The notes under the pieces: generated by a model
The model's database searches: none
What the model was told of the DNA's origin: nothing
Seen by the model: the letters and a program-made list of their open reading frames with translations, nothing else
Program-made: the position numbers and the translations under genes
Shown: one piece after another, positions 4,554 through 33,761 of the stretch
Layout: each line of letters opens with the position of its first letter
How positions within the stretch are numbered: position 1 is the first letter of the stretch
Assembly (NCBI GenBank): GCA_964452415.1
Contig: CAYVME010000003.1
Location: 178 to 52,434 of the forward strand
Direction: 5' to 3'
DNA from: an uncultured Bdellovibrionales bacterium
GTDB taxonomy: Bacteria; Patescibacteriota; Minisyncoccia; Moranbacterales; GWC2-37-73
DNA: 52,257 nucleotides

Positions 4554-4557
4554 AATA

Positions 4558-5694
4558 CTAGAGTTTCGGTTGAGAAAAAAGTGTTTTGAAGCTTTCAGCA
4601 ATCTTATCAATAATAGTCGATTGCGGTCTTGGGGTTCTGAGCGCATATTCTTCAGAATTTGCAATGACCCCATCGCCGTCAACTGATTTCACACTAAAAT
4701 AATAGGTTTTTCCAGCAGTTAATGTTGTCAAAACAACAGCATGTTTTGTTTTCAAATCTTGGCTAACTAAAATTTCTTTTTTCTCATTTGATCTACCCTC
4801 TTCATATGCCAGAACTGTGGTTGATGGCTTGTTTGTGATCCAGGAGATAATTGTCTGGACTTTATTTTTCGGTTGCAAATGATTTTCATTCATCACATTG
4901 GAAATTTTAAGCACTGAGTTATCATCTTCATTATCGAAATTCTCAGATGATTCCATGATTGGAATTTTGACTATTTCCTTTTTTTCATTCAAATAATTTT
5001 CATTATTATTAACATCTTCAATTTCAGGTTTTGTCTGTTGCTCGCAAGCAGAAATAAAATCTCCAACAGTAAGAAACTTTATGGGATCCTTGCCATCCCC
5101 CCATGAAGTCACACTTTCAATGTTAACTTTTTCCGATGAATCCTTGGCCGTGATACGCACATAATAAACGAGACCCTCCTGCAAAGAATCAACTTGGATT
5201 ATATGCGTGACCGCATAATCAGCTTCAGCTGATTGACGTACCATATTGGTGTAATTTTCATCACTAAAAACCTCGACGAAAGCCTTGGTTGCAAGTGGCT
5301 TATTATCATTGGCACTGTCCAAAGTTTTAAAAATAACCGTTGCTTGATTCTTGGAAATATTCCCCAAGATAATATCGCCTCGCCCATTGGGAATGTACAA
5401 TTCTGATTTGATATTTTCTGGAAATATACCCAGGACAAGAAACATTCCTGCAAATAAAGATAGCAGAATCAAAAAAATGGTCACGCCTGTTCTCTTGAGT
5501 CTTTTTTGATATTTTTTAAGTTGAGTGTATGAAGTGAATTTTCCTTTTTTCAGTTTTGAAATCCTAATTTGATTTGTTGAAGCGTCGCAAAAAAACCAAC
5601 TTGAATATTCTTTCAATGATTTCACTAGTCGTGATGAGAATTTTTTTGTTTTCCTTTTCAAAATTTCAAAAATTAGAATTAAAACTTCGCCCAT
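4558..5694 (-). CDS. Membrane-anchored FN3 (purple-acid-phosphatase-N-like) protein, short paralogue of the upstream giant protein
   Basis: N-terminal TM helix; ISWITNKPSTT...HAVVLTTL..GKTYYF FN3 module; C-terminal domain homologous to that of the 2204-aa protein; overlaps its stop by 16 nt. Confidence 0.8.
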   Translation of the reverse strand: MGEVLILIFEILKRKTKKFSSRLVKSLKEYSSWFFCDASTNQIRISKLKKGKFTSYTQLKKYQKRLKRTGVTIFLILLSLFAGMFLVLGIFPENIKSELYIPNGRGDIILGNISKNQATVIFKTLDSANDNKPLATKAFVEVFSDENYTNMVRQSAEADYAVTHIIQVDSLQEGLVYYVRITAKDSSEKVNIESVTSWGDGKDPIKFLTVGDFISACEQQTKPEIEDVNNNENYLNEKKEIVKIPIMESSENFDNEDDNSVLKISNVMNENHLQPKNKVQTIISWITNKPSTTVLAYEEGRSNEKKEILVSQDLKTKHAVVLTTLTAGKTYYFSVKSVDGDGVIANSEEYALRTPRPQSTIIDKIAESFKTLFSQPKL

Positions 5695-8600
5695 CCAAAG
5701 ATATCAGTGAAGTTTCCAATAATAATTTGGATGATATTTTCTTTTCTTCTTGGGGTAAGAAGTGCATAATCAGTTGATTTGGCTTCGTTGCCTGACGCAT
5801 CCACTGATTTGGTGTTGAAGTAATAGACAGTGCCTGGTTTGAAACTGGTGATGACTGCTACATGGTTTGTGCTCAGTGCTTCAGAAATATTGATTTCTTT
5901 AGCTTCAGCATTTCTGCCTTCTTTGTATAGGACAGAGGTGGTTGATTGTTCGTCTGTGTTCCAAGAGATGATGGCTTGGACTTTATCGTTTTGAGCCAGA
6001 GCTAGATCTGTTTTAACCATATCTATCTTAGGAGGATTTTCGTCTTTTCCTGTGGTTAGATCTTTGGCGTCTGTTTGAGATTCTGTTCCTTGTTCATCTC
6101 TAGCTTGGATTTGAATTTTAAAGGTTGCTCCTTGGGTAAGGTTTTTAATTTGGATACTATGTTTGGTAGCCATCTCGTTGTCTGCTTGGGAGCCATTGTC
6201 AGCAGGGTCAGAGATATTGGTATAGATTACGGTAGCGGTAGTTGGGATATTGGTATTGAAACTTATTGTAGCTTCATGCTCAGTGATGTCATTGATGTTG
6301 ATGTTTGATACTTGGGCAGGACTCTTTGGTTCAAAAGTTTGATCTGAAGATGAATAGAGTTTTTTATCTTTATCTTGTCCTTTGACCCTGAAGTGATATG
6401 TTACTCCTTGGTTCAGGTTGGATAGTGAGATGGAATGTTCTTTAGTAAGGGTGTTTGATTCCTTTTTTTCTCCATAGGAGGTAGTGAGGCCATATTCTAC
6501 AATTGAAGAAGTCTCACTTGAAGTATTCCAAGTGATTTGAGCTTCTCCTAGGTTTAGAGACTCAGCTTTGATTGAAGATAGTGAGGATGGGGAGGCTGTG
6601 GTGAAGGAGGATTCGGCAGAAAAACCAATATTACCAGATTTGTCAGTTGAAGAAACCCTAAATAAATACTTTGTGGAAGGAATCAGACCACTCAAAGTTA
6701 CCAAGTGGGAAGTTGCAAATTTTTCCTTATTTTCATTTACAATTTGATCATTAGCGCCATTTTCATTTGTTGCAGTAATTCCATATCCAACAGAGCTACT
6801 TCCCACTTCATCTGTATTCCAAGTGATAGTCGCGCTCTCACCTGTTGTACTGGCAACTTTCACATTATTAATCACCGGAGAATTAATATCCAGTTCATCC
6901 AATGCAAACCTTTGCTTTGTGGTTTCAAAATCGCCAATCTCTGAATAAATCCAATTTTCAAATTTATCGAATTTATCTGACTCATCTTCCATCCCCACAG
7001 TTAAGATGTTGTCGTGACAAGACACATCATAGAGATACTTTGACTCTGGAGTCAAACTAGAAACAAGAATTGAGTGTGAGGTGTTGTAATTCTTATCTTC
7101 AGTATATCCGTTTTCAAAACTTGTGACTGTCGTTGCGCTTCCCACTATGACAGCATCTGTTTCAGCATAACAAAGAGCGGGTTGATCTGTAGTGAAGGTT
7201 ATGATGGCATTTGTGTCGCGCGTATTTTCCGCAGTAACATCCATGTTTTCAATTTTTGAAAGTGGTGGATGATCAAATTCAATATTTTTTGTCGTTTTAA
7301 AGTTATATTCTGCAGTGTCATCGTTAACATTCCCATTGATATCCATGGATTCGACCTTGAAATAATAATCTTCATCAGCAGCAAGCCCAGAAAGAATGAT
7401 GTAGTGACCCCTGTTGAAAGTCACGACTTCCTGATGATCAGGATATGGACCACCTTCAGTTGTCCCATAGGAAACTTTACTGGTGGCTGGCTCGTCAGTT
7501 GTCCAAGTGATAACTCCTCCCTCATTTGAGATAACAGGAATTTCTATCAATGCAATTTCTGGTTTTTTATTATCCTCAGTGGTTGTAAGTTCATAAAAAC
7601 TTCCACCATTATTATCCACAGCCTCATTTCCATCACCATCAATCGATTTAACATAGAAATAATATGTTTCATTTGGAACCAATGGAAGATCATTATAGGT
7701 TGTGATTGTTTGTGAGTGATAATATTCACCACTTGTTGGATTTCCAACAAGTTCAGGTGTTCCAAATTCTTTTGGATTAACCAGATTTCCATTTGAAATG
7801 TCTGTTGAATAAACAACGAAACTGGAAGAGTCCGTGGTTGTTTTCCAATTTATAGTGGCTTGAGTGTTTGAGACATTTGGAATTGTCACACCTGAAATTG
7901 CCGGTCCGGGAAGAGTATTGAAAGTGAAATTTTCAATTGCAGAAGCTCCATTGTTGTCCTTATCATTTTGACCCAAATTTCCCACAACATCATATGACTT
8001 AACTCTTATGTTGTATGTTGTTCCAGGAATAAGTCCAGTGAGTGTTATTGAGTGGCCAGGCTTCGATGGGTCACCTTCAGTATATTTTTCAACCATAGCT
8101 GCAATTCCTCGCTCAGGAAGATATGGGCAAAGATTTCCAGGAGCATCATCACAATCAACTTGCGAGGAATATCCCACGCTCGAATTGGCAGGTTCATCCG
8201 TATCCCAAAGAATTGTGGCTGAAGTCGTATTTATGCTTGTTGAGCGAACATTTGAAATTGTTGGTGGAGTTTGATCAGATCCACCTTGTCCATTTGGATT
8301 ATCATCAACCGCTGATGAATATTTCGATAGGTTGCCAGCACTATCAGTGGTTAAAATTTTATAATAATAGTGCTTATTCGTATCAAGATTAAAATCATTA
8401 TAAAAATTAGTATTAGGATCAGGTATACTTTCCACTCCAAGATAATTCAAAGTTGCATTTTGATCACTTTCCAGTCTTTCAGCTCGATAGATCTCATAGC
8501 TTCCAAAGCCAGCCCCAGATTGACCAGCAGAAATAACATCCCAAGCAATGAATTCCCTATATTCACCTGAAACATCATTCGAAGTGTCATAATACACAAC

Positions 8601-11600
8601 GCTACTTGGACTGGCTGGTGTGGTAGCTGTAGCATCCATATAATTTCCTTTCACATCTCTTGCCCGCACATAAACAGTGGCGGGATCATTATCAATAATT
8701 GCAGGGTAAGTTTTTTTATTATCAACTGGATAATCTTCGAAAACAGCATCTCTAAAATCTGAATAATTTGAATATGCAACTTGATATGGCAAATCATCGC
8801 TTGGAGCAACCAATGTCAGATTGTTGGTACTTTTAGTGTGATCAATTGTAAATGAGAGATTAATTGGATCCTTAGTGTCGAACTCAAAAGCATTTGAAAT
8901 TCCATATCCGATATTATTAGCGTCCTCACTGTCATTAGCTAAGATTCTCACTTTGAAGCTTCCATTATATTGCTCATCATAATCAGACTTAGAATCCCAA
9001 ATTACAGTATACGAAGTTAATGTCAACTCCTGAACAGTCAAAATATTATTTCCCAAAATGTTATTGATTGAGTCTTTGTATGTTAGTGAGGTTGCATTGA
9101 CCCATGTTTCGCTTCCTGGGTTGGTGCAGTTTGCAGTGCAATATTGAAAACCCCCCAAAACAGTGTTTGCGGTTCTTCCAGTGCTTGTGTCCAAATCAAT
9201 GACATTGAAAGTTGTTGTGACTTTTCCATCAGATCCTTGCGAGGAGATCACATCTTGTATTTGCGGTGCGGCATTTACAACATATTTCAATGAAGCACTA
9301 TTAACTTGTGACGTACTTGCACCATCACTGTCCAAGGTAATCCTATATTGCATCCATCTGTCACTAGTAAGAGCGGCTGTTTCAGGTGTGCTTGAATCGT
9401 AAGTTGAAATTGGAACACCTGAAGGAATATCGCAAGTTACAAGCGTGCCTGTTTTTGAACATCCAAACGATGTGCTTGTAAAATATGTTGCACCATCTTG
9501 TTGCCCAGCAGGATCAATACCGACAAATCCAGTTGGAGTCCCTGGAGAGCCGGCAGAATCAGGTGCGGTTTGAACCATCATTTTAACTTGAGTCCCAGCT
9601 GGAACAGAAGCTTCATCCCAAATTACCGATTTAAAATTATTGGCTGGATCAGTTGTGTCATACCAAGATGAAATCAGATTCTGAGTTGTGGGATAAGTTG
9701 AATAAACAAAAGTTATATCACTCAAAACCGGTGTAGAGGTAACTCGAGTGGAATATTTCCAAAAAGTTGCAGTGCCATTACCCCTAATAGCATACATGCT
9801 GCCAGCAGTATCACTCGTCAAAGAAGCACCATAGGAACCATTAGCTGGTGTAGCTGCTATTTGTGTCCAAGTTGCTGATGAGATATTGTACTTATAAAAT
9901 AATGAACTTCCATTACCATTAAAAAAATATATGTTACCGCTACTATCACTTGTTAAGCCTTCTCCGATACTACCATTTAAATTTAGCGGATTCGCTAAGG
10001 CTGTCCAATTATTCAAAGTTATATTGTATTTATAGAAAGCGCTTGCGCTTAACAAATAAATATTTCCATCTCCTCCATAGGTTGTAGCATGACTTCCATA
10101 ATATAAGATACTTGGATATGATGCCAGCGATGACCAACTATTTAATGCGATATTATATCTATAAAATTCACCTGTACCAGCACCCCTGATCGCATATAAA
10201 TTACCATCCCTGCCAGCTGTCAAAGAAATTCCAGAATAAGCGCTTGAACCCATTGGCACAGGTGCTGATGTTAATTGAGTCCAACTATTTGATAAAATAT
10301 TATATTTATAAAAATCCGATGTTTGACCACCCCTGATTGCATACAAATTTCCATCATAGCCAGACGCCAAAACACCAGTCATAGTCACTGGTACTGGAGA
10401 CATAGCAGACCAAGAATTTGTAAGGGTATTATATTTCGAAAAAGCCGTAGAACTTCCGCCCGCAAGAGAATAAATGTTGCCATTGCTATCATGCACGATA
10501 TCAGCCCCTGAAGTATTATTGGCTAATGTATTCGCCTTGGCCTCCCATGTATTAACTCCACCCCCAGTCAAGAATGCTTTATACCTAGCATAGCGATGAA
10601 ATCCGAGATTTGGTGTCGCTGTTCCAGAAACTGTGAAGTATGTTGAAGCTGTTCCATCCGGTCCCACATAATTCCAAGGGCCACCGGAAGAATCCGAAGT
10701 TGCAATTTGATATTTGCTATCAGCACCATTCAAAGTGTGATTGAAATTAAGCGCAGTCAAATTTCCTTTTTGACTCAAATCAATCGTGGATGATTCAAAA
10801 ATCCCAGAGGATGCATAGTTATCATAAATTGAATACTTCCAAAAATCAGTAAAGTTATTTCCCCTCGCTGCATAAAAATTACCTTTTCCATCAAAAACCA
10901 TACCACCACCACCAGTAGTAGCACTACTAGAAACAGTTGCGGGTGCCGAAGCAATAGTTGTCCATGAATTATTTGCAATATTATACTTCCAAAAATTATC
11001 AAAACCATTCCCCCTTAACACGTAAATATTTCCAGCACCATCCGAACCAGTTCCACCAAGAAATGTGCCCAGAGGTGAAGCTGCTTTAGCCAACCAAGTA
11101 TTTGAAGCAATGTCATATCTGGAAAAACCTGTCTGACCATTACCATTAACAAGAAAGATGCCACCATTTTGATCGGAAACTAGATTACCGCCAGAAGAAT
11201 TTGTTAAACTATTTGCCATTGCCGTCCAAGAGTTTAGTGCGATGTCGTACTTATAAAAAGCATTACCATAATTAATAGCAAAAATATTTCCGTTAGCATC
11301 ATGGGCCATTGCTCCGCGGAAACTAGTCGCCAATGGAAAATCAGCTTTAGCTATCCATGTATTGGTTTCTATGTTGTATCTCCAAAAATTAGCAGTATTT
11401 CCACCCCTTAGTGCGAAAATATTTCCGCTACCATCATAAACCAAACCACTGGAATCACTATTGACAGTTGAAGGCGTGCTTGCCAGAGATGTCCAAACAT
11501 TTGATGCAATATTGTATTTCCAAAAATCCGAAGTATTACCACCTCTTAATGCAAATACATTTCCATTATTATCATAAGCTAAAAAGCTTCCCCTCATACC

Positions 11601-12293: not shown

Positions 12294-12389
12294 TTTTTTA
12301 TTTTATGTTTGACTGCAGATTCTTTTTTACTTATATATTTTAACATGGAAATGGGATTTTTACAAAACACTTTTAATACAGTTTTTCAA

Positions 12390-12424
12390 CAAAAAAATCC
12401 ATCTTTTTTTGATGGATTTTTTAT
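12390..12424 (-). terminator. trpS terminator
   Basis: aaaaaatccatc...gatggatttttt inverted repeat. Confidence 0.7.
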
Positions 12425-12461
12425 TAAGATTTTTGAATTTTAAGTATTCAAGAAGGCTAAG

Positions 12462-13574: not shown

Positions 13575-13638
13575 AAAGTCCATAAAGTCCATAAAGCTAA
13601 AAGCTCTGTGCACTATTAAATTTATTCATTACTATCTC

Positions 13639-13667
13639 ATATTAACCAAAAATCAGCATTTTTGCAA
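13639..13667 (-). promoter_or_regulatory. Putative trpS promoter
   Basis: TTGCAA-17bp-TAATAT on minus strand. Confidence 0.5.
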
Positions 13668-13685
13668 ACAAAACTCCCTGTGGTT

Positions 13686-13799
13686 TTTTTGTGAGCCTGC
13701 TTCCTTTCGAGGCAATAGTGAGCGACAGCGAGGTCTTAGCGAAGCAGTCATAGTTCCCGACTGCGAGCGTGCCAAGAAAGGAAGCAGGCGAAACAAAAA
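13686..13799. repeat. Dispersed structured element, copy 1 (ncRNA or REP/MITE-like)
   Basis: Perfect 14-bp stem gcctgcttcctttc/gaaaggaagcaggc enclosing ggca/tgcc and gcagtc/gactgc stems; homologous to 41804-41930. Confidence 0.8.
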
Positions 13800-13870
13800 C
13801 AACGCACAAACAAAAATCCGATCAATTGACCGGATCCCTGCTTTATGGACTTTCACCTTATGAACTATTC

Positions 13871-18168: not shown

Positions 18169-18170
18169 AT

Positions 18171-19025
18171 TTACTTTTTATTTTTATTTTTACCAGTAGG
18201 ACCTTCCGACAAATCACACTCTTCCAAAGAATCGTCCTTTTTGAATTTTTTCAAATCCTTTTTATAGGAAATGCTTTCCAAGATTTCACCTTTATTAGTT
18301 TCGTCATACATAGCAACAATTCCACCATCTCTCATTCTTAATATGTTTTTTGCATATTCAAGATATTCCAAATCGTGCGTTACCATCACAATGGTTTTTC
18401 CCATAAAACGAAGATCTCCCAACAGGTGTAGAAGTTCCCTTCCTGAATCATAATCGAGATTTCCCGTCGGCTCATCTGCAACAATAACCTCCGGATTCGT
18501 TACCAGCGCTCTGGCCACTGCAACTTTTTGCTGTTGACCACTCGAAAGCTCAGCTGGATTATACTGCGCCCAATCCTCCATTCCGACTTTTTTCAACATC
18601 TTCAATGCATATTGAGTTGATTCAAGTTCATCATTTCCAAGTAAAATTAGGGGGAGAGAAACATTTTCCAAAACAGAAAGCGACCTCACCCAGTTTGATT
18701 GCTGATACACCATTCCAATATGTTTCCTTCTAAATTCTGTTTTTCTATCCTCGCTATCATCTCGATAAATGTTCTCACCCAAAAAGACAACTTTCCCTGA
18801 AGTTGGTTCTTCCAACCCAAGAATAGAATAAAGCAAGGTTGATTTTCCACATCCTGAAGGACCAAAGATGATAAAAAAATCCTCCTGGCAAATATCAAAA
18901 GAGATACCTTTAAGAACCTCAACATTTTGGTCTCCAACAATGAAAGATTTGTGAAGATTCCTAATCTCGATAATCGCAGGCGCGCAATATCCAACCTTTT
19001 CACTTTTATTTGGACAACTAGCCAT
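18171..19025 (-). CDS. ABC transporter ATP-binding protein, LolD/MacB type
   Basis: GPSGCGKST, LSSGQQQ, VIVADEPTGNLD, VTHD. Confidence 0.95.
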   Translation of the reverse strand: MASCPNKSEKVGYCAPAIIEIRNLHKSFIVGDQNVEVLKGISFDICQEDFFIIFGPSGCGKSTLLYSILGLEEPTSGKVVFLGENIYRDDSEDRKTEFRRKHIGMVYQQSNWVRSLSVLENVSLPLILLGNDELESTQYALKMLKKVGMEDWAQYNPAELSSGQQQKVAVARALVTNPEVIVADEPTGNLDYDSGRELLHLLGDLRFMGKTIVMVTHDLEYLEYAKNILRMRDGGIVAMYDETNKGEILESISYKKDLKKFKKDDSLEECDLSEGPTGKNKNKK

Positions 19026-23482: not shown

Positions 23483-23526
23483 TATTTTTTTACTTTCATT
23501 TTTTCCATTATAACATGCTTTCAATT

Positions 23527-26500: not shown

Positions 26501-28590
26501 TCCCAAGCACTGTTAATACAAGCAATATCATCCGCCCCATCAACACTGCCTACTTCCGGCCAAGAAATTGTAAAATCCTTTGAAGAAATAAAATCCGTTG
26601 GCGCATTAACCGAACTCATCAAGTTGGGCCTACTCTCATCAACACCGATTTCAAACTGGGCAAAATCAGTGGAAACATTATTATAATTATCAATAGCCTT
26701 AACATTTAAATAATATGGCTCGGAATCACTAGGGATACTCCAGAGATCGTTACCTTGCTGATCCCTCATTGAGTATTGCATCGCAAGCGCATACATATCA
26801 AAATCAGTTCTATCCTCACCAGAATCTTTCAATATAAATTTGCAATTTTCATTTATTTCTTGTGGGTCAATTAATTCTTGTGGCAGAGCTCCGATCCACC
26901 AACTATAATAAGGATTAGAAATCAAGCTTGATTCTTTGAGTAGACCACTATTTGAGACTGGGTCACCTGCTGGATCCGTTCCAAAATATAAACAATATCC
27001 TTTTGTGTTAAGTTCGACATCTGAAGCCTTGTCCCAAGAAAAACCAAATCGTTGAGATCCAGCAGTCCAGCCACCGTTGTTAATTTTTTTGTCATTACCT
27101 TCACCGTCCCTACCGATCATTTCCAGGTTTAAATTTTCACTGCCAATTTCAGGCGCGATTACATCAGATGACCAATACTTAAAATTGATTGAATTTATTT
27201 TTGGGGTTACAGAATAATCAGATGTTCTAAGCTCAGCCTTTATCTGAAAAAAACTGTCGTTAAGCCCAAAACCATTATTAACAAGATCCGCCGTTAAAAC
27301 TCCATCCACGCTGTTGAATGTAAACTCACCAAGTTGATTATATGTAGCAGCATTTAAATCATTAAGTGTTGTAGCGCTTTTAATATAGAAATCTACACTG
27401 GTTGAGGCAGGCAGATCCATTTGGGCAGAAAAAGAATCTCCGCTCTTCCAGCCCTCATTAGTACCAAGATTTATAATTGAAGATTCCCAAGATCCAGAGG
27501 TAGCGTAACGATCATCCAAGAGAGAAAACTGGAAAACATCAGTCGATCCATCACTGGGCATGGCATATATATAATTATTTTGACCACTCAATAATATTCC
27601 ATAATAATAATTATAGTCAGCCACGTTAGGTATTTCACCAACAGTGCTCCAACTATCAGCAACTATGTCATACTTAAGAAAGTTTTTTCCTTGATCAGGA
27701 CCACCACCACCTATAACATACATATGCCCAGCGCCATCATGGGTGGAATAAGGAGAATAAAGTGCTTCTGGCGCATCTGCAACTTTGTCCCAAGAATTTA
27801 ACGACATGTCATATTTCCAAAGATATGGAGTGCCATAACCCTCAAGAACATAGATGTTACCTTGCTCATCCACATACATCGACCTAACTGGCCAAGTTCC
27901 ACTGCCAATACCGGCATAGCTAGTTATTGCATCCCATGTATTTTGCAATATATTGTACCTTGCAATATCCCCCCATTCTCCAAGTATATATATTCCGTCA
28001 AGCCCATCATATGCCATTGCCTTAAAAGTGCTACCAGAATAATTACTAACATATTCCAAATTAAATGCTTGCGTTGTGTTAAATCTATATAAGACTCCTC
28101 CAGCTATAATATAGGCAATACCATTTTCAGAATAAATACCCCCATCCCAACTATAACCATACGGAAAATCTCCATTATAATTCCAAATATTAGAGTTAAA
28201 ATCATATTTATTAACACTGCCAGCTACTTGATAAATATCATTATTCTCAGTGGCTATAGCGCCATTAAATTGAGCAGAGGGAGGATTGCTGATTTTTTTC
28301 CAATGCTGACCAAAAATAAGCTGCACGCTTTCATCGCTTCCGGTGCCAATAACTTCAGTTGCATTATTGTTGCCTCCAGAAAAAAGAAAATTATCAGAAA
28401 CATCACTCGTTGGAATAGTTACCAAGATTTCCTGGCTTGCAGCAAAGACAACTCCATATAATTTCTCGAATTTTTCAAAATAAAAAAATGACCCTAAAAT
28501 AAGCAACGAACAAACGACCCCAAGAAGATTAGGGTGTCGCCTTATTATCGCGTTTTTTTTTCTAAAAAAAATATGCATTTTCTTTCGCAT
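23527..28590 (-). CDS. Large surface protein (~1690 aa): TM/signal, Kelch-like propeller, inserted LamG domain, FN3 stalk
   Basis: Kelch-like repeats, WHHLAFTWD...GSIDEIAMYNR LamG motif, FN3 modules; start at ATG 28590, downstream of TGCTATAAT at ~28624-28632. Confidence 0.85.
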   Translation of the reverse strand: MRKKMHIFFRKKNAIIRRHPNLLGVVCSLLILGSFFYFEKFEKLYGVVFAASQEILVTIPTSDVSDNFLFSGGNNNATEVIGTGSDESVQLIFGQHWKKISNPPSAQFNGAIATENNDIYQVAGSVNKYDFNSNIWNYNGDFPYGYSWDGGIYSENGIAYIIAGGVLYRFNTTQAFNLEYVSNYSGSTFKAMAYDGLDGIYILGEWGDIARYNILQNTWDAITSYAGIGSGTWPVRSMYVDEQGNIYVLEGYGTPYLWKYDMSLNSWDKVADAPEALYSPYSTHDGAGHMYVIGGGGPDQGKNFLKYDIVADSWSTVGEIPNVADYNYYYGILLSGQNNYIYAMPSDGSTDVFQFSLLDDRYATSGSWESSIINLGTNEGWKSGDSFSAQMDLPASTSVDFYIKSATTLNDLNAATYNQLGEFTFNSVDGVLTADLVNNGFGLNDSFFQIKAELRTSDYSVTPKINSINFKYWSSDVIAPEIGSENLNLEMIGRDGEGNDKKINNGGWTAGSQRFGFSWDKASDVELNTKGYCLYFGTDPAGDPVSNSGLLKESSLISNPYYSWWIGALPQELIDPQEINENCKFILKDSGEDRTDFDMYALAMQYSMRDQQGNDLWSIPSDSEPYYLNVKAIDNYNNVSTDFAQFEIGVDESRPNLMSSVNAPTDFISSKDFTISWPEVGSVDGADDIACINSAWDGLSDDGNYDDDGCACKEYDENESCVSWWYSEISGVAGYQYGIVTRIDNRNGVTWYGPNHTNAPDDFFPASETSYTMQNAFLDENGNPMMGRDGNLGEFPIQGSMEFWMKTNTTSGSHDVLSTRDNGDMYNELHFKQDGGSFYACVSDVTGYGDCFDFFPDGDLSVDTWHHLAFTWDQDENLAIGYLNGEEIFSRDVYSWPNVIPNFIVGRGEYDTGRYWDGSIDEIAMYNRNLTSEEIFTQYDVEGYMEGDTYQSVIQRSSNLVHYWKFDGNLVDSVGNADGEIVLGNITFFEDPLAWFSSNAATFDNASYAKFGQQIVLSDFANLNEGTNYIRIKVCDNAGNCDDNSQSTAMVRIAAGSTGRPRNLSVSPADSTSNAYSFSWSLPEDFPGKNYDPNGDELSYCYTVNTLPSAQTCTFTEKSDCAEGLCSLDADAFATRPGENTFYVATRYISDSVDIIDYNDYNSISFNYSGSAPGIVEGVDISDVSIKDAQDWKLAIFWNQPSEIGAGVSKYEIFRGENRSSCDSFEEIGFTEGLAYIDPDLEQKDYYYCVRACDSANNCGAYSSLVTEFPTGKFTEPAILTSGPDISEISTSKATIDWTTDRESDSRVAFGTKSREYLVEEPSKPDQVSDHNIVLNDLSPGTKYYFEAKWMDEDGNIGVAKQKSFQTKPTPSVKDVKALQVGISNSLIHFTAENANKALIYYGKTTAFGSSKEVVTNEEEGTYDVQLEDLEDDTKYYYKINTFDSEGREYEGTTVDFTTIPRPKVFDVKVQQVMNAAVPTVSVFWNSNVEVLSVVSFYPEGNIEEIRKEVSVDFIAGSHEMIVGDLKEDTQYVWIVSGTDRSGNEVISDSYVFNTSEDARPPQISDLTVEGSNTAINNGSENEQNISQLLVSWTTDELATSQVEFGEGTEANYPQKTQEDSNLTYNHMVAISGLTPSRVYHLRAISKDKAGNVGNSFDSISITPKEIDSAFALVVANLQQAFGFFGN

Positions 28591-28691
28591 TGGCAACTTT
28601 TTATTTTTATTGCTTGTGTCAAAATTATAGCATATTTTCCTACTTTTTGCACAACAAAAAAACACCTATTTTTTGAAGTGTTTTTTTAATT

Positions 28692-31600
28692 TTACCTATT
28701 AAAAGCACTCAAAAACCCAAACACCTCAACCAAATTTCCAACCACCAACTCAAGGGCGCTGTCCACGGCTTTTGGAGTTATGCTGACTGTGTCTTGGGAG
28801 TTTGCGATGTTTCCCATTTGATCTTTAGAGATGATTCTGAGATGATACACTTTTGAAGGTGTAAGTCCTGAGATGATGACGAGGTGGTTATTGGTAAGGT
28901 TTGAATCTTCTTGAGTTTTTTGAGTGTATGAAGTTCCCACTCCTTCTCCAAATTCCACTTGTGAAGTTGAAGCTTCATCTGTGTTCCAAGCAACTGCAAA
29001 TTGTGAGAGTTTGTCAGCTTGATTTTTGGTGCTGGCTCCTTCAACCACAATTTCAGAGATTTGAGGAGGCCGCGTGTCTGAAGCGGTAGTAAAAGAATAG
29101 GTGTCAGAACTTGCTTCATTTCCAACTCTGTCCACACCTTTGACGGTGAGCTGATAAGTTGTCATGGGTCTCAGATTCATAATAGTTGCTTCGTGGAAAC
29201 CTGAAACAAGATCAACTTGGACTTCCACTCTATTATCAGTTGGATTGTCATTTGGGGCATATGAGATAATTGAAGAAATCTCAGTGTTAGTGTTCCAAGT
29301 GACTTTGATTCCAGGTTGGGCTGAATCTTTGATTGCTTCAATTTCAACATTTGAAATTCTTGGTTTTGGGAGGGTGGTGAAGTCGATTGTCGTTCCTTCA
29401 TATTCACTTTCCTCAGCATCAAAAGTGTTGATTCTATAATAATATTTTGTTCCATCCAAAAGATCAGACAATTCGGTTGCATAAGTGGACTCAGAAGTGG
29501 AAGTTGAAATTTCTTTTGATCCTCCGAAATTGGTTGTTTGTCCATAATCTATTCTGACTTTTGTGGCACCTTTCGTTGTGAAGCTGACAATTGCAGATGA
29601 GATTCCAATATTTTTAACAGAAACATTTTTCACGCTTGGCGGATCCTCGGTTCTGAATGTTTTTTCCGTGCTCACGCCAGTGTTTCCATCCTCATCGGTC
29701 CATTTAGCTTTATAGAAATATTTTGTGTCAGGTTCGAGACCAGAAAGTCTGATGCTGTGCGAGGTTGCCTGAGCTGAATCACTTGGTTCAACTTTTTCAT
29801 ATGTTCCACTTTTTGTTCCAATCTGAATCTTGGAATCTGCAGCTCTTTTTGTGCTCCAAGAAACAAGAGCTTTCTTTGTTGTAATCTCATCAGCTATTGG
29901 CTCCGAGTCCAATTCTGGCGCAACAACCCATTTTCCAGTTGGAAAAATGCTTACTGCATTTGTTCCTGAACTCTCAGCGTTTGCGCCATCTCTGACAAAG
30001 ACCTTATAAAAATATTCTTTCGATTCTGGAGTATTGTCCACATAAGACAAGCCTGATGTTTCGCCAACTTCCTCAAAATCAATTCCGTTTTCCGATCTGG
30101 AAATCAAATAATGCAAATTTCCAGCCCCTTGATACTCAGGCGCGCCCCAAGTCAAGGTCACATTCCATTGCGCAAGCGACTTTATTGAAGAATCAGAAGC
30201 CATCAAATTGTTAACATTGTCTGGATCGGTTGAATCAAGAATGAAATTGCCTGAAATTGAGTTGCTCGGAGAATAATTCGGAGTTTCGGCATCATCAACC
30301 GCAACAACCGTGACAGTGTTTGTGCCCTTATTAACATTCGGAAGATTTCGAAGTGAAACTTGCCTGCTTGTGCCATTGTCAAAATATGTCGCAGGATTAT
30401 TTTCCAAAGTGTTCAATGAAGACGGAGTTGGTGTGTTCACCATATAATAATAATGAGAAACACTTTGACCTTCTGATGGTTGCGCCTCTGGCCATTCCAA
30501 GGCAAATGAGTTTTCCGTTGAAGTTTGCGGAGAAACTGTCACAACATCAATATCATTAAAACGCGGAGCATCTCCACCATAGGCCAAATTGCAAGTTCTG
30601 ACCGTGTTCAAGCCAGAAACATTTCCGGCATTATCAATTGCTCGAAAATACACAATATTATTGCCAGAAACAATTCCTCCCCCATCCTGATCACTAGTTA
30701 AATTGCGTGAATTCTCAATCAACGGAAAATATTGATTTATTCCTAGAATTGTTTCTGTCGTGCTTCCAAGCCAATCAGAATCTATTGAGTTAAGTTGATA
30801 TTGATAACCAAAAAGACCAGAGTGGTCATCTGAAGCCATGCCGTTTCCACTTGTCGGCCACATGAAATTCATGTCCACCACATTACTGAAACTTCCAGAG
30901 GCGCAAGAAAGATAGACCACATTGTTTGGCGGAGTGTTGTCAAAAAGGAAAGAAAAATCAATTGAAGTGTCTGAAATGTTTCCTGCCAAGTCCACAGCCT
31001 TAAGCTTGAAATAATATGGTGTATCTTCATTTTGAGTTGTAAGCCAAAGATTGCCCCTTAAGGTAGCATTAGCAAAATCAACACTGTTTCCAGGAATTAT
31101 AAATGGACAATAATCAGGCATTGCAATTGGAGAAGTTCCAAGTAAGCCTGGGGTTGTTTCTGGATCTCCGACAATGGTTTCATCTGTTCCAAGATAAGCA
31201 CAGTAACCTAAAATGCCAGATTGTCCATTATCATTCCCAATACTCCATGAAAAATACGGAGCCAAATTATTCGCCCAATCATTTTGCGCAAGCATTCTTC
31301 CACTCGAGGACAGCGCCATTCCCAAATTAGTAGCATTTGATGGAGGCGTATCATCAGAGCGATAATTTAGGACTATGGTTTCCAATTCAGGGTTAATCCC
31401 TGAATCTTGCTCCAGAGTGGCTTTGATTTGAACATAGCGATTATTTCCAGTTCCGACACCTGCCAAGTCCAGTTCCGCTTTTGTTTTCTCAAAAGTTACT
31501 CCGCCATTTGCCACACCCAGATCCGCATATGGAGCAGTTGCCAAATCCTCTTTGGTTTGGGCTGATTTAATTTGAAAAGTGATGGTGCTCTCCGCTCCCA

Positions 31601-33761
31601 CATTATTCACCGTCGCCGAAAAAGCAACACTCCCGTCGGTACCATCTCCCCAACCGCCATTCCAAATAAGATCGATGATGTTGTCATTTGTTGGCGACTC
31701 CCACATGCCCAAAAGTGGCAAGGTCGATTCTTCAGGGCTCAATGAAACTGTTTTAAAGACATATGGATAACGAATAATAACAATTCCTGAGCCACCCGTA
31801 CCACTGGCCACATTCTCTCCTCCTCCTCCACCACCACCGCCCGTATTTGGAGACCCACTTGTTGCAGCTGTTGCTCCATAACGACCATTTCCTCCACCGC
31901 CTGCACCCCCTTGAGGAATTCCTACAGTTGCACTACCATGAGAAGAACCAGCTCCACCACCAGCATAATAAGTTGAGATGCCACTGATAGAATAAGCTAC
32001 GCCACTACCACCAAAACCCCCTTCTCTGCTATTAGTTCCGTAATCATTACCACCCACAGCGCCGACTCCTCCACCACCAGCGCCACCATACCTAGGTGAA
32101 TTAGGCGCAGTACCTCCGCCATTATTCCCTTGCCCTGAAGTTCCAGTTGCAAGAGAATTGCTAGATGGATGATACTGCCCAGATCCACCACCAGAACCAC
32201 CATTGGATGGGCCATACAGACTATATGAACCGCCTCGTCCACCACCAACAGCTGTCAATGTAGAAAAAACACTATTTTGACCATTTGCACCACTTGTAGC
32301 ACCACCAGCTCCAACAGTTACTGCATAATTTCCGGAAGAAACAGAAAAATTGTTATCATACACCAAGCCACCAGCACCACCTCCACCGGCATTGCCAACA
32401 TTAGTAGCTCCACCAGCACCACCGCCAGCCACAACCAAAACCTCTACTGGCTTATCAGTATTAATATTAAAATTTCCACTTGAAGTAAAGGTGTGAATCG
32501 CGTCATTACCTGAATAAGTAATATTTCCCCCAGTAGCTGGAAGAGTAAAAGCTGTTGACCCATTCACAGCACCTGCACTACCATAATACATATTTATATT
32601 TTTTCCTGATGATGAAATCGATGGAATTCTCACCCAGATTTTGGCATTTTGTCCGACTGCAGTATATTTTTCAACCCAATATTCCAAGTCGGTGCTGTCA
32701 TTTGAATCTTTGAATCTGAAATCATCACCGTCTTCTTGAGTTTTTAGATATATCTCATCAAAAAGCGGTGAACGATTGTTATCCATGAGCTTTTGAACCT
32801 CAGCTCCAGACAAGGCTCGATTATAAACCCTGACTTCATCAATTTGACCATTAAAAAAAGACTGTGGGGTTCCCCCACTATTAACACTGGCTCCAATTTT
32901 TTCTGCAATTCCAGCTGAATTAATAACATTAACGGTTCCCGTAGCGGAATCAAGTTGACCATCAACATACATCCTGGTGTCAGCCCCGTTTATCACTCCA
33001 ACTACATGATGCCAAACACCTGGCGTTATCGGAATGGTTCCACTGAAATTACTTCCTCCATGATGTCCAATATTCATCATTCCGGTAGCTGCATTTATTT
33101 TGAGTCCATATCCATTAACGCCTGCAGTTCCCTTTGCAATGATTTGCTGTCCCAATAATGGATCAATTGCATCCACATTTATCCAAGCTGACATCGTTAC
33201 CGCATTATAACTTGGCAAATCCAAGGAACTTGAAGCTGGAATTGAAATATAATCATCAATTCCATCAAAATTTCTACTCTTGTTATATCTTCCATCAGTA
33301 ATAACCGACCCTCCAACATCCAAGCCATTATTAGAATTGCCTGAGATATCGCCAGCGCCAGAACCGGAAGTTTCATCCAAATTCCAATATCCGATCCCTC
33401 CCTCATCAATCAAAATTTGATAATTGGAAAGATCTTGTCCTGTTACATTTGAAACCTCCAAAGATCTTTTGTACAATGTTCCATCTGGTCCAACCTCACC
33501 TTCAATATGAACAACTCCACCTGCTCCCAAGCCGGAAACTGCAGTTGTGTCAAAAACACCCTGCTCAAAATCTGTCGAAGTATCCAGCACGATTGATGAA
33601 GAAGTATCAGCAGATATTCCTGGAAACAAAATTCCTGTGGCTAAAAAATAAACCCCAAAGAGACTTCCCACAGCAAAAGTCATGACCAAAATAAGGTTAA
33701 ACTGCCATTTCGCAATGGTGATTTTTTTTGTAAAGATATTCTGAATAGTACTATTCAACAT
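28692..33761 (-). CDS. Large surface protein (1689 aa): TM/signal, DUF2341-like domain with nested LamG, Gly-rich domain, FN3 stalk
   Basis: DDFRF..LEYWVE..KIWVRIP..MYYG (DUF2341-like); WHHVVGV..GQIDEVRVYNRAL (LamG); VEVLVVAGGGAGG...GGSGIVIIRY Gly-rich module. Confidence 0.85.
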   Translation of the reverse strand: MLNSTIQNIFTKKITIAKWQFNLILVMTFAVGSLFGVYFLATGILFPGISADTSSSIVLDTSTDFEQGVFDTTAVSGLGAGGVVHIEGEVGPDGTLYKRSLEVSNVTGQDLSNYQILIDEGGIGYWNLDETSGSGAGDISGNSNNGLDVGGSVITDGRYNKSRNFDGIDDYISIPASSSLDLPSYNAVTMSAWINVDAIDPLLGQQIIAKGTAGVNGYGLKINAATGMMNIGHHGGSNFSGTIPITPGVWHHVVGVINGADTRMYVDGQLDSATGTVNVINSAGIAEKIGASVNSGGTPQSFFNGQIDEVRVYNRALSGAEVQKLMDNNRSPLFDEIYLKTQEDGDDFRFKDSNDSTDLEYWVEKYTAVGQNAKIWVRIPSISSSGKNINMYYGSAGAVNGSTAFTLPATGGNITYSGNDAIHTFTSSGNFNINTDKPVEVLVVAGGGAGGATNVGNAGGGGAGGLVYDNNFSVSSGNYAVTVGAGGATSGANGQNSVFSTLTAVGGGRGGSYSLYGPSNGGSGGGSGQYHPSSNSLATGTSGQGNNGGGTAPNSPRYGGAGGGGVGAVGGNDYGTNSREGGFGGSGVAYSISGISTYYAGGGAGSSHGSATVGIPQGGAGGGGNGRYGATAATSGSPNTGGGGGGGGENVASGTGGSGIVIIRYPYVFKTVSLSPEESTLPLLGMWESPTNDNIIDLIWNGGWGDGTDGSVAFSATVNNVGAESTITFQIKSAQTKEDLATAPYADLGVANGGVTFEKTKAELDLAGVGTGNNRYVQIKATLEQDSGINPELETIVLNYRSDDTPPSNATNLGMALSSSGRMLAQNDWANNLAPYFSWSIGNDNGQSGILGYCAYLGTDETIVGDPETTPGLLGTSPIAMPDYCPFIIPGNSVDFANATLRGNLWLTTQNEDTPYYFKLKAVDLAGNISDTSIDFSFLFDNTPPNNVVYLSCASGSFSNVVDMNFMWPTSGNGMASDDHSGLFGYQYQLNSIDSDWLGSTTETILGINQYFPLIENSRNLTSDQDGGGIVSGNNIVYFRAIDNAGNVSGLNTVRTCNLAYGGDAPRFNDIDVVTVSPQTSTENSFALEWPEAQPSEGQSVSHYYYMVNTPTPSSLNTLENNPATYFDNGTSRQVSLRNLPNVNKGTNTVTVVAVDDAETPNYSPSNSISGNFILDSTDPDNVNNLMASDSSIKSLAQWNVTLTWGAPEYQGAGNLHYLISRSENGIDFEEVGETSGLSYVDNTPESKEYFYKVFVRDGANAESSGTNAVSIFPTGKWVVAPELDSEPIADEITTKKALVSWSTKRAADSKIQIGTKSGTYEKVEPSDSAQATSHSIRLSGLEPDTKYFYKAKWTDEDGNTGVSTEKTFRTEDPPSVKNVSVKNIGISSAIVSFTTKGATKVRIDYGQTTNFGGSKEISTSTSESTYATELSDLLDGTKYYYRINTFDAEESEYEGTTIDFTTLPKPRISNVEIEAIKDSAQPGIKVTWNTNTEISSIISYAPNDNPTDNRVEVQVDLVSGFHEATIMNLRPMTTYQLTVKGVDRVGNEASSDTYSFTTASDTRPPQISEIVVEGASTKNQADKLSQFAVAWNTDEASTSQVEFGEGVGTSYTQKTQEDSNLTNNHLVIISGLTPSKVYHLRIISKDQMGNIANSQDTVSITPKAVDSALELVVGNLVEVFGFLSAFNR
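28711..29450. repeat. Direct repeat B: 3' constant region shared with 19125-19864
   Basis: Collinear near-identical sequence at offset 9586 bp. Confidence 0.9.

What the first reader, a model, noticed from the sequence alone, without database searches (positions are those of the whole stretch)
4558..33761. Candidate surface-display system: five FN3 proteins with a shared C-terminal amphipathic tail clustered around a MacB-type ABC transporter
Seen: C-termini TPRRKENIIQIIIGNFTDIFGWAKF (2204 aa), TPKAVDSAFELVVGNLVETFGFLKGLQN (1472), TPKEIDSAFALVVANLQQAFGFFGN (1712), TPKAVDSALELVVGNLVEVFGFLSAFNR (1689) and TPRPQSTIIDKIAESFKTLFSQPKL (378). Each directly follows the last FN3 module. All five also have an N-terminal hydrophobic segment, and the four giants have variable ligand-binding heads (Kelch-like, LamG, DUF2341, Gly-rich) on a conserved FN3 stalk. 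The ATPase and permease genes follow three of them on the same strand. Known: MacB/FtsX/LolCDE-type ABCs act by mechanotransmission on extracytoplasmic substrates. The tail is not LPXTG, PEP-CTERM or an SLH motif, and no MFP/TolC gene is adjacent. Inference: the tail is a sorting, anchoring or polymerisation signal handled by the ABC complex, displaying adhesins, perhaps for host attachment by an episymbiont.
Basis: partly seen in the sequence, partly recalled or inferred. Interest (0 to 1): 0.8.

Follow-up and report, generated by a model that had tools for sequence, protein, structure and literature searches.

The report
Giant surface proteins' ABC-linked tail
Giant surface proteins of an ultrasmall bacterium end in a short conserved helix that is inherited together with a dedicated ATP-driven membrane machine, which points to an undescribed way of mounting proteins on the cell surface.

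Summary
All five ORFs end exactly as quoted, directly after their last FN3 domain. A sixth tail protein lies on another contig.

The tail is not a local oddity. A tail-only profile hits 70 of 401 sampled Patescibacteria genomes. 65 of these also hold the permease subfamily (5 tail only, 23 permease only, 308 neither). 53 of 120 tail matches have that permease 1.1-3.7 kb downstream on the same strand.

Tail subtypes track ABC subtypes. This genome has two systems:
- **Type B (..FGF):** three giants, an ATPase and a long 625-aa permease, forming the window's operon.
- **Type A (..FGW):** the 2204-aa and 378-aa proteins and the contig-9 giant. Their cognate ABC is probably on contig 30.

- The terminal FN3 co-varies with the ABC as much as the tail does.
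- "Amphipathic" holds only for type A.
- The tail is not generally more conserved than the FN3.

A complex prediction (type A pair) gave weak support only: 0.49 against 0.00 for the controls.

The physical mechanism is inferred: the type VII ABC grips the C-terminal module. I found nothing on this in print. This scan has reported the same module at least 10 times on other DNA.

The parts
28692..33761 (-). 1689-aa type B giant. It has an N-terminal hydrophobic segment (residues 23-41), a Laminin_G_3 / DUF2341 / Gly_rich_2 head, an FN3 stalk and a type B tail.
   Evidence: tail-profile match E 4.6e-15
23527..28665 (-). 1712-aa type B giant. It has Kelch-like repeats, an internal Laminin_G_3 domain, an FN3 stalk and a type B tail. 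The first ATG is at residue 26 of the listed frame.
   Evidence: tail-profile match E 3.5e-12
19106..23524 (-). 1472-aa type B giant. It has a Kelch-like head, an FN3 stalk and a type B tail. The first ATG is at residue 15. It lies directly upstream of the ATPase (80-bp gap).
   Evidence: tail-profile match E 9.8e-15
19109..19480 (-). C-terminal module of the 1472-aa protein: the terminal FN3 plus a helix of about 20 aa ending F-G-F. The equivalent modules lie at 23530-23901 and 28695-29066.
   Evidence: A4 alignment of 21 type B modules has 62% mean column identity. In the AF2 model the FN3 has pLDDT 86-96 and the tail helix (residues 104-115) has pLDDT 50-59.
18171..19025 (-). ABC ATPase, 284 aa, of LolD/FtsE/MacB-NBD type. 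Walker A, Walker B with the catalytic Glu, and the H-loop are intact.
16291..18168 (-). Type VII (MacB/FtsX-fold) permease, 625 aa, long form. It has an extra N-terminal hydrophobic helix (25-43) and TM1 at 100-118. Its outer domain spans 119-489 and holds a beta-rich insertion at about 234-338. Three further TM helices follow.
   Evidence: Pfam FtsX 68.9 bits and MacB_PCD 54.8 bits; AF2 pLDDT 79.6; Foldseek matches MacB, LolCDE and YtrEF at E 4.5e-19 to 1.2e-16
5679..12293 (-). 2204-aa type A giant. It has a long pre-TM leader, a hydrophobic segment at 106-124, two Kelch-like propeller regions, an FN3 stalk and a type A tail ending F-G-W. It is not in the ABC operon.
   Evidence: tail-profile match E 8.4e-21
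4558..5694 (-). 378-aa short paralogue of the 2204-aa protein. It has the same pre-TM motif, a TM segment at 73-91, two FN3 domains and a degenerate tail (F-S-Q in place of F-G-W). It overlaps the giant's stop by 16 bp.
   Evidence: BLASTP against the 2204-aa protein E 2e-24 over its last two FN3 domains and tail; tail-profile match E 5.3e-12

Best explanation
These are Sec-exported surface proteins built as a conserved leader, a variable head, a conserved FN3 stalk and a conserved C-terminal module. That module is the terminal FN3 plus a hydrophobic helix of about 20 residues ending F-G-W or F-G-F.

The module is the handle by which a cognate type VII ABC machine (MacB/FtsX fold: cytoplasmic ATPase plus a permease with a large outer domain) engages the protein on the outer face of the membrane. 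The ABC does not carry the protein across the membrane.

This genome has two such systems:
- **Type B.** Three giants, an ATPase and the long permease form the window's operon.
- **Type A.** The 2204-aa and 378-aa proteins and the contig-9 giant are probably served in trans by the ABC on contig C30.

I favour a holding or mounting role. The permease dimer would keep the stalk end at the membrane while the head projects outward, and the ATP cycle would load, tension or release it. This resembles the way FtsEX holds EnvC or PcsB.

Shown: the genes, the motif, the co-occurrence, the gene order and the subtype pairing. Inferred: contact, topology, and what ATP hydrolysis does.
For: **1. Co-occurrence.**
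- In 41 relatives, 28 genomes have both tail and permease subfamily, 2 tail only, 2 permease only and 9 neither. The cut-off of 1e-38 was chosen after seeing the gap in the E-values.
- Close relatives split the same way. G025 has both and its congener G036 has neither.
- In 401 genomes of the phylum the counts are 65/5/23/308.
- Of 20 loci taken from 18 of the 23 permease-only genomes, 9 have a diverged tail that the profile missed.

**2. Gene order.**
- 53 of 120 tail matches, in 48 of 70 genomes, have the permease match 1.1-3.7 kb downstream on the same strand.
- Among the best 79 of 526 type B module loci in species-representative genomes, 59 of the 68 with at least 3 kb of downstream DNA have a long permease within 2.5 kb.

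**3. Subtype pairing.**
- All 17 loci with a readable tail whose permease is 509-986 aa long (16 of them ending ISAL[ND]ALRYE) carry a type B tail.
- ABCs with a 429-449-aa ATPase carry type A-like tails (5 of 5; also G017, G023, G002:C23 and G026:C93).
- A third subtype is adjacent to its own ABC in 4 of 4 cases.
- Tail clusters change 13 times on the permease tree against 29.6 +/- 1.4 in shuffles; 0 of 500 shuffles are as low.
- G219 and G350 each hold two systems. Their tails pair across genomes in the same way as their permeases do.

**4. Minimal unit.** Proteins of 209-223 aa with one FN3 and a tail sit beside the ABC in G027 and G038.

**5. Not a packed cap.** In the AF2 model the tail is a helix of low confidence (pLDDT 50-59) on a confident FN3 (86-96).

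**6. Working motor.** The permease has the type VII fold and the ATPase motifs are intact.

**7. No sortase.** PF04203 was not found in the genome, which is 97.9% complete.

**8. Complex prediction, weak support.**
- The job held the C30 permease in two copies plus the last 120 aa of the 2204-aa protein.
- The score was 0.49 (runs 0.50, 0.46, 0.49); the best of 3 controls scored 0.00.
- The mark was reached by 58 of 80 solved complexes and 2 of 110 mismatched pairs. At 0.60 or under it was reached by only 7 of those 80 and by both mismatches that passed.
- The runs agree in at least 74% of contacts and the partner's pLDDT is at least 71.
- I used my own alignments and a 2:1 job unlike the calibration. 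No interface was given.
Against: - No call shows contact for the window's own type B pair. That job would exceed the size limit (2 x 625 + 124 residues).
- The terminal FN3 tracks the permease better than the tail does (Spearman 0.61 against 0.47). The tail is therefore not singled out.
- The tail is not generally more conserved than the FN3. Mean identity is 0.37 against 0.42 over all pairs and 0.59 against 0.57 for type B. Only type A within the window's own family shows the tail ahead, 0.78 against 0.62.
- 67 of 120 tail matches have no listed permease within 5 kb downstream. These include three of the window's five proteins and the contig-9 giant, so service in trans has to be assumed.
- One ABC serves several giants here, which fits a catalytic role at least as well as a stoichiometric anchor.
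- Relatives share both traits by descent, so the Fisher and shuffle figures overstate independence.
- Whether the N-terminal segment is cleaved was not tested. If it stays, the protein would be tethered at both ends.
Confidence: 0.45

Rival explanations
1. Lol-like extraction. After Sec export the hydrophobic tail sits in the outer leaflet of the membrane. The ABC extracts it catalytically and hands the protein on to the wall, to an S-layer, to a partner such as the 378-aa paralogue, or to other tails (polymerisation). The tail would then be a true sorting signal and the ABC its sorting enzyme.
For: - One ABC serves several tail proteins: three in the operon, and scattered type A genes.
- The type A ABC sits in a conserved housekeeping neighbourhood (tgt - ATPase - permease - folD) in about 25 loci with no tail gene beside it, as a general sorting machine would.
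- Mean hydrophobicity of the tails is about 0.5 on the Eisenberg scale, in the membrane-seeking range.
- LolCDE-lipoprotein structures are among the best fold matches.
Against: - No acceptor or chaperone gene is conserved next to the ABC.
- A released hydrophobic helix would need a new binding site, and none was identified.
- NCBIfam LolC/E scores are far below the cut-offs (70.4 against 362.45).
Confidence: 0.25
2. Indirect link. The ABC and the giants work in one process without the tail being gripped. For example, the ABC clears or exports a small molecule or peptide at the site where the giant acts, or it senses envelope stress caused by the giant. The C-terminal module would only be the structural base of the stalk.
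For: - Conserved gene order shows a shared function, not contact.
- MacB-family pumps export small molecules and peptides (established knowledge).
- The closest solved homologue by sequence, B. subtilis YtrF (E 2.2e-27), has no known substrate. Abstracts in the listings call the operon's function enigmatic.
Against: - Tail and terminal-FN3 subtypes follow the permease clades even between two systems in one genome. This is hard to explain without specific recognition.
- The heads, which would define the process, vary freely while the C-terminal module does not.
Confidence: 0.15
3. Autonomous tail. The helix is a cap of the last FN3 or a self-sufficient in-plane membrane anchor, and the ABC is irrelevant to it.
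For: - The helix is short and hydrophobic and ends in aromatic residues, as interfacial anchors do.
- Many tail genes have no ABC beside them.
Against: - Co-occurrence, gene order and subtype pairing argue against it.
- The tail has low confidence (pLDDT 50-59) next to a confident FN3 in a model built from 21 sequences, which does not fit a packed cap.
- Internal FN3 domains of the same family carry no such helix.
Confidence: 0.1

Closest known systems
FtsEX with EnvC, PcsB, CwlO or RipC (type VII ABC plus an extracytoplasmic partner held through helices)
   Same: - The permease fold and the separate ATPase are shared.
- The partner is exported by another route and engaged outside the membrane.
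- Nothing is transported; the mode of action is mechanotransmission (established knowledge; listings).
- FtsEX structures are weak fold matches (E 6.5e-06 to 2.8e-05).
   Different: - The partner here is a 1500-2800-aa head-and-stalk protein with no hydrolase or activator domain.
- The handle is a C-terminal FN3 plus a short helix, not a coiled coil.
- The outer domain is MacB_PCD-type with an extra beta-rich insertion.
- FtsX NCBIfam models score 25-32 bits against cut-offs of 225-255.
- A separate, short FtsX-type frame exists on contig C7.
LolCDE and its lipoprotein substrates
   Same: - A type VII ABC acts on the membrane-embedded end of an already exported protein.
- One machine serves many substrates.
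- It is a top fold match (9rld, E 4.6e-18).
   Different: - The signal here is a C-terminal peptide helix, not an N-terminal lipid anchor.
- No LolA/LolB-type acceptor was seen beside the ABC.
- The lolCE model scores 70.4 against a cut-off of 362.45.
MacB (MacAB-TolC) and Gram-positive MacB-like pairs (Spr0694-0695, YknYZ, YtrEF)
   Same: - They share the Pfam domains MacB_PCD and FtsX.
- They are the best sequence and fold matches: YtrF 9o9x, MacB 5gko and 5xu1.
- Some relatives fuse the ATPase and the permease, as MacB does (L087, L108, L123).
   Different: - No membrane-fusion protein gene lies beside it in the window.
- The conserved neighbour is a giant surface protein.
- The permease has an extra N-terminal helix and an insertion in the outer domain.
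- The MacB equivalog model scores 77.9 against a cut-off of 966.
Sortase / LPXTG and the exosortase / archaeosortase CTERM signals (functional analogy only)
   Same: - A short conserved C-terminal signal is shared by many otherwise variable surface proteins.
- Signal subtypes are tied to a dedicated machine.
- Some substrate genes lie beside the machine and others are scattered.
   Different: - The tails have no LPXTG, no full-length TM segment and no basic end.
- No sortase was found.
- No NCBIfam CTERM model matches.
- The machine is an ATPase-driven ABC, not a transpeptidase.
- Cleavage of the tail is not shown.

Membership tests
Type VII ABC transporters (MacB/FtsX fold) | C-terminal FtsX-type four-helix membrane domain (PF02687) | tested here: met
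   68.9 bits against a cut-off of 25.5, residues 495-617
Type VII ABC transporters (MacB/FtsX fold) | Large extracytoplasmic domain between TM1 and TM2 (MacB_PCD, PF12704) | tested here: met
   54.8 bits against a cut-off of 27, residues 98-217. The outer domain spans 119-489 and holds an extra beta-rich insertion.
Type VII ABC transporters (MacB/FtsX fold) | Fold matches solved members | tested here: met
   Foldseek: MacB 5gko E 4.5e-19, LolCDE 9rld E 4.6e-18, 5xu1 E 1.1e-17, YtrEF 9o9x E 1.2e-16. TM-scores normalised to the target are 0.35-0.68.
Type VII ABC transporters (MacB/FtsX fold) | Cognate NBD with intact catalytic motifs | tested here: met
   ABC_tran 117 bits. Walker A GPSGCGKS, Walker B with Glu, and the H-loop are present; the signature is the variant LSSGQ, read in the printed sequence.
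MacAB-TolC tripartite efflux pump | Adjacent membrane-fusion (HlyD-type) adaptor | tested here: not met
   None of the 16 ORFs scanned around the ABC matches such a family.
MacAB-TolC tripartite efflux pump | Passes the MacB equivalog model | tested here: not met
   NF007826: 77.9 bits against a cut-off of 966
MacAB-TolC tripartite efflux pump | Outer-membrane exit duct (TolC) | not tested
   No search for TolC was run.
LolCDE | Passes the LolC/LolE models | tested here: not met
   TIGR02212: 70.4 against 362.45. LolC 43.5 against 473. LolE 28.8 against 439.
LolCDE | Substrates are lipobox lipoproteins | not tested
   No lipobox scan was run.
FtsEX with a hydrolase activator | Passes the FtsX models | tested here: not met
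   FtsX_Gpos 31.7 against 225. FtsX_Gneg 25.6 against 255.
FtsEX with a hydrolase activator | Partner carries a coiled coil plus a peptidoglycan-hydrolase or LytM-type domain | tested here: not met
   Pfam finds only Kelch, LamG, DUF2341, Gly_rich_2 and FN3-type domains in the five proteins.
Sortase-LPXTG and CTERM sorting signals | LPXTG or CTERM motif followed by a TM helix and a basic end, plus a sortase or exosortase gene | tested here: not met
   The tails as read carry no such motif. PF04203 has no match in the genome. No CTERM model appears in NCBIfam; the only hit is a weak FN3-level match to NF045522 at 21.4 bits against a cut-off of 150. Exosortase was not searched.
Type I secretion substrates | No N-terminal signal; a C-terminal signal read by a HlyB-type ABC with MFP and TolC | tested here: not met
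   All five proteins have an N-terminal hydrophobic segment. The ABC is type VII, not HlyB-type. No MFP was seen.

The most novel reading that the evidence does not exclude
Patescibacteria have their own ATP-powered system for sorting and mounting surface proteins, a functional counterpart of sortase/LPXTG. It would work through a "tail code": each class of C-terminal FN3-plus-helix module is read by its own class of type VII ABC machine. At least seven multi-member tail clusters and four singletons appear among 48 systems. The machine mounts giant host-binding fibres and may pull on or release them. The window's genome would run two such channels in parallel (types A and B).
Probability: 0.35. 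Interest if true: 0.85.

Novelty: new variant of a known kind. Interest (0 to 1): 0.7.

Why it matters
- Patescibacteria are a large share of bacterial diversity. All cultivated members live attached to other microbes (abstract of 10.1101/2024.11.25.624915, seen in the listing). How they mount their giant surface proteins is not known.
- Passages in two papers (PMC11809585; PMC13059738) list such FN3/DUF2341 giants as candidates for host binding. In those passages FtsEX appears only as a cell-division system.
- A conserved C-terminal handle paired with a dedicated type VII ABC would add a new kind of partner to the mechanotransmission ABC family.
- It would also give a sequence signature for predicting the displayed surface proteome of these organisms.
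- It would offer a concrete target (tail or ABC) for testing attachment in the few genetically tractable strains.

Tried and rejected
- **Tail more conserved than its FN3.** I expected this and it is not generally true.
- **"Amphipathic".** This is not significant for the type B tails.
- **Promoter and terminator scan, 4300-19300.** Counts were 49 sites against 39.5 +/- 6.6 in shuffles and 12 against 10.0 +/- 3.4. It gives no usable operon boundaries.
- **Named families for the tail.** Pfam and NCBIfam have no model for it.
- **RNA genes.** No tRNA and no Rfam family was found in the window.
- **Tripartite MacAB pump, LolCDE, FtsEX, sortase signal, T1SS substrate.** Each fails at least one defining feature (see the membership test).
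- **Structural cap.** This is disfavoured by the low-confidence helix but not excluded, because the tool returns no contacts.
- **Complex prediction of the window's own type B pair.** It was not run: two permease copies plus the module exceed 1000 residues and only one job is allowed. The type A pair was run instead. No interface was returned, so where the tail sits is unknown.
- **Literature.**
  - Seven searches found no description of the module.
  - Passages were read in three papers.
  - Supplementary tables were closed. They may list these genes without my seeing it.

Full report
**1. What is in the window**

The window is contig C3:178-52434 of a 984,951-bp, 53-contig genome that is 97.9% complete.

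Nine genes lie on the minus strand between 33761 and 4558:
- three giants of 1689, 1712 and 1472 aa;
- an ABC ATPase (284 aa) and a permease (625 aa);
- RNase J and a class-I Trp/Tyr-tRNA synthetase;
- a 2204-aa giant and a 378-aa protein.

The gaps within the first five genes are 26, 2, 80 and 2 bp. A gap of 389 bp then precedes RNase J. The 378-aa gene overlaps the stop of the 2204-aa gene by 16 bp.

Pfam confirms the variable heads (Kelch, Laminin_G_3, DUF2341, Gly_rich_2). It also confirms stalks of Pur_ac_phosph_N/fn3 modules that run up to the tail. Each protein has one N-terminal hydrophobic segment.

**2. The rest of the genome**

A sixth tail protein of 2770 aa lies on contig C9. Its tail is identical to that of the 2204-aa protein. 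All 24 matches to PF16656 in the genome fall in these six frames.

The genome has five FtsX-domain frames: C3 (the window), C30, two on C29, and C7. None is on C9.

The 378-aa protein is a shortened paralogue of the 2204-aa protein. It has the same pre-TM motif, the last two FN3 domains and a degenerate tail.

The 1472- and 1689-aa genes share their last 750 nt or so at 78-92% identity. The 2204-aa and C9 genes share about 1.0-1.2 kb at the 3' end at 67-93%, and also the N-terminal leader. Their middles are unrelated.

**3. The tail in relatives**

The last 124 aa of the 1472-aa protein hit 29 of 41 related genomes. Reading the C-termini of those loci showed two subtypes:
- Type A, as in the 2204-aa protein, ends ..NF..IFGW.
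- Type B, as in the three operon giants, ends ..NL...FGF.

More distant forms also exist.

An ungapped alignment of 28 tails (A1, with an invariant Phe) gave a tail-only profile. It hits 30 of the 41 genomes with 79 matches.

**4. The permease in relatives**

Full-length relatives of the 625-aa permease occur only in G006, G026 and G012. These are exactly the other genomes with type B tails, and in each the permease lies on the same contig just after the giant.

A shorter paralogue subfamily is present in 30 of 41 genomes at E <= 1e-38. I chose that cut-off after seeing that best E-values were either <= 1e-38 or >= 1e-25.

Crossing searches gives:
- both, 28;
- tail only, 2 (G011, whose congener G021 has both, and G015, which has a partial permease frame);
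- permease only, 2 (G035, G037);
- neither, 9.

G036 has neither, while its congener G025 has both.

**5. Three pairings in the 41 genomes**

I fetched 37 regions around these permeases.
- **Type B:** the giant lies directly upstream of a short ATPase and the long permease in 4 of 4 genomes.
- **A third tail subtype (..TF..RFGW.S):** it sits on giants of 2492-2646 aa, directly upstream of its own ATPase and a 419-436-aa permease, in 4 of 4 genomes (G002, G023, G007, G039).
- **Type A:**
  - Its ABC has a 436-aa ATPase with a C-terminal extension and a permease of about 405 aa ending ..ALRYK.
  - It usually sits in a conserved neighbourhood (tgt - ATPase - permease - folD). In this genome that is contig C30.
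  - A type A giant is inserted directly upstream of it in G017 and G023.
  - Tails at contig ends lie directly upstream of it in G002:C23 and G026:C93.
  - Tail proteins of 209-223 aa lie directly downstream in G027 and G038.
  - In the remaining loci, about 25, no tail gene is adjacent.

**6. Across the phylum**

In 401 genomes drawn evenly from the phylum, the tail profile hits 70 (E <= 1e-3). The C-terminal half of the window's permease hits 88 (E <= 1e-30). The cross-table is both 65, tail only 5, permease only 23, neither 308 (odds ratio 174, Fisher p 9e-49). Relatives are not independent, so this p-value overstates the case.

In the five families listed in both tallies with mixed presence (f2, f22, f28, f30, f38), the same genomes hold both traits.

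53 of 120 tail matches, in 48 of 70 genomes, have a same-strand permease match starting 1.1-3.7 kb downstream. That distance is the room needed for an ATPase and the first half of a permease.

Of 20 loci from 18 of the 23 permease-only genomes, 9 have a large ORF directly upstream that ends in a diverged tail the profile had missed. The other 11 have none.

**7. Subtype tracking across the phylum**

I fetched 52 of the adjacent pairs. 50 had a readable tail, always within a few residues of the stop codon.

- All 17 loci with a permease of 509-986 aa (16 ending ISAL[ND]ALRYE) carry type B tails. In two of them (L087, L108) the permease is fused to the ATPase. A third fused locus, L123, had no readable tail.
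- The five with a 429-449-aa ATPase carry type A-like tails.
- Further classes pair with their own ATPase and permease sizes.

Two further tails were dropped because the alignment cut them before FGW, leaving 48 systems. Tail identity correlates with permease identity (Spearman 0.47; 0 of 2000 permutations reach it). The terminal FN3 correlates better (0.61).

The tails fall into 11 clusters, which change 13 times on the permease tree (the minimum possible is 10). Shuffles give 29.6 +/- 1.4, and 0 of 500 are as low.

G219 and G350 each hold two systems. Their tails pair across the two genomes as their permeases do.

**8. Independent collection**

A search for the type B module in one genome per species confirmed 526 loci. 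The titles of the best 79 name Nomura-, Davies-, Shapiro-, Collier-, Pace-, Woese-, Roizman- and Moranbacteria, WWE3, WS6 and Saccharibacteria. Some MAGs are labelled Gammaproteobacteria or Pseudomonadales by their submitters.

77 of the 79 have a readable type B tail. Of the 68 with at least 3 kb downstream, 59 have a long permease (506-986 aa) starting within 2.5 kb. Two more have a fused gene that scored only as an ATPase.

**9. The proteins themselves**

- The permease model (pLDDT 79.6) shows extra N-terminal helices and a beta-rich insertion at about 234-338 in the outer domain. It matches MacB, LolCDE, Spr0695 and YtrEF.
- By sequence the closest solved chain is B. subtilis YtrF.
- The ATPase has intact catalytic motifs.
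- A model of the last 124 aa of the 1472-aa protein has a confident FN3 (pLDDT 86-96) and a helical tail of low confidence (50-59).
- The hydrophobic moment is significant for the type A and 378-aa tails but not for type B. Mean hydrophobicity is about 0.5.
- No sortase was found, and no NCBIfam model covers the tail.

**10. Complex prediction**

The window's own pair is too large for the tool. I therefore folded the C30 permease in two copies (alignment of 35 sequences) with the last 120 aa of the 2204-aa protein (alignment of 19 sequences).

The verdict was weak support:
- The score was 0.49 (runs 0.50, 0.46, 0.49). The best of 3 controls scored 0.00.
- The mark was reached by 58 of 80 solved complexes and 2 of 110 mismatched pairs.
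- At 0.60 or under it was reached by only 7 of those 80 and by both mismatches that passed.
- The runs agree in at least 74% of contacts, and the partner's pLDDT is at least 71.
- I used my own alignments and a 2:1 job unlike the calibration. No interface was given.

**11. Reading**

The C-terminal module (terminal FN3 plus helix) and a type VII ABC are inherited, placed and diversified together across the phylum. The simplest account is specific recognition of the module by the permease on the outer face of the membrane.

Whether the machine holds the stalk end as FtsEX holds its partner, or extracts and passes it on as LolCDE does, is not settled. Several substrates per ABC, and the housekeeping setting of the type A ABC, lean towards the second. 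The lack of any conserved acceptor leans towards the first.

The system fails the membership tests for MacAB-TolC, LolCDE, FtsEX, sortase signals and type I secretion.

**12. Earlier work**

Seven literature searches found no description of the module. Passages in PMC11809585 and PMC13059738 mention large FN3/DUF2341 proteins and FtsEX separately.

This scan has reported the same module at least ten times in other Patescibacteria genomes. I formed my reading before seeing those notes, and it agrees with them.

This report adds:
- the split of this genome's six tail proteins into two systems;
- the phylum-wide pairing of tail class with ABC class;
- the finding that the terminal FN3 co-varies as well.

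Noticed in passing
G000 contig C30:2473-3783 (outside the window; locus L070): The ATPase of the type A ABC is 436 aa. It carries a C-terminal extension of about 200 aa that is conserved in about 30 relatives and ends ..LGG.GLYKG.AEK.V.E.E.IMLLKYSA. Earlier scan notes describe it as a helical repeat domain with no known family.
   Followed up: partly
window 19106-19860 against 28692-29440; window 5679-6880 against G000:C9:5901-7100: Paralogous giants share near-identical 3' cassettes (78-92% and 67-93% nucleotide identity). The 2204-aa and C9 giants also share the N-terminal leader. The middles are unrelated. This looks like gene conversion or cassette exchange that keeps both ends constant.
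   Followed up: partly
window 12000-12293 and 5480-5694 (N-termini of the 2204- and 378-aa proteins): A long cytoplasmic leader of about 70-105 aa precedes the hydrophobic segment. It carries a shared motif, SY[ST][EQ]LK[RK]YQK[KR], that is also present in the C9 giant. It may be a special export leader. The type B giants lack it.
   Followed up: no
window 16291-18168: The type B permease has an extra N-terminal hydrophobic helix (residues 25-43), which recurs in relatives. Its outer domain has a beta-rich insertion (about 234-338) flanked by disordered loops. Its length varies from 506 to 986 aa across the phylum.
   Followed up: partly
window 13871-35987 compared with L053 (G001:C21): In G001 the cupin-type isomerase, ManC, one 246-aa ORF and RNase J are neighbours and are followed by the type A ABC. 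In the window the whole type B cluster (three giants plus the ABC) sits between ManC and RNase J. Only 2 of the 9 genomes of the genus have a type B cluster, and G006 has it at another place. The cluster therefore looks mobile or often lost.
   Followed up: partly
window 2995-4416 (+), 33900-35279 (-), 35379-35987 (-): Genes for phosphomannomutase/phosphoglucomutase, GDP-mannose pyrophosphorylase (ManC) and a cupin-type sugar-phosphate isomerase flank the surface-protein genes. They may supply sugar for glycosylating these proteins.
   Followed up: no
window 36129-37262 (-): A 377-aa protein carries a C-terminal DsbA/thioredoxin-like domain (weak Pfam matches, E 2e-06) two genes upstream of the cluster. 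It may handle disulfides in exported proteins.
   Followed up: no
L087, L108, L123, L136, L148, L155, L156, L158, L179, L194: In several other Patescibacteria the type B ATPase and permease are fused into one gene of 669-986 aa, as in MacB itself.
   Followed up: no
L126-L128, L130, L134, L138, L140-L144, L199 and others: Many public MAGs that carry the type B module are titled Gammaproteobacteria, Pseudomonadales, Omnitrophota or Bdellovibrionales. Given the gene content, these labels are probably wrong or the bins are mixed.
   Followed up: no
G008:C8:30779-30883, G002:C5:51499-51597, G004:C16:108221-108322, G006:C16:14018-14119, G001:C23:26159-26260 and others: A family of tail-bearing proteins of about 280-287 aa (E 1e-8 to 1e-4) occurs in most genomes of the genus. 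It was not found in the window's genome.
   Followed up: no
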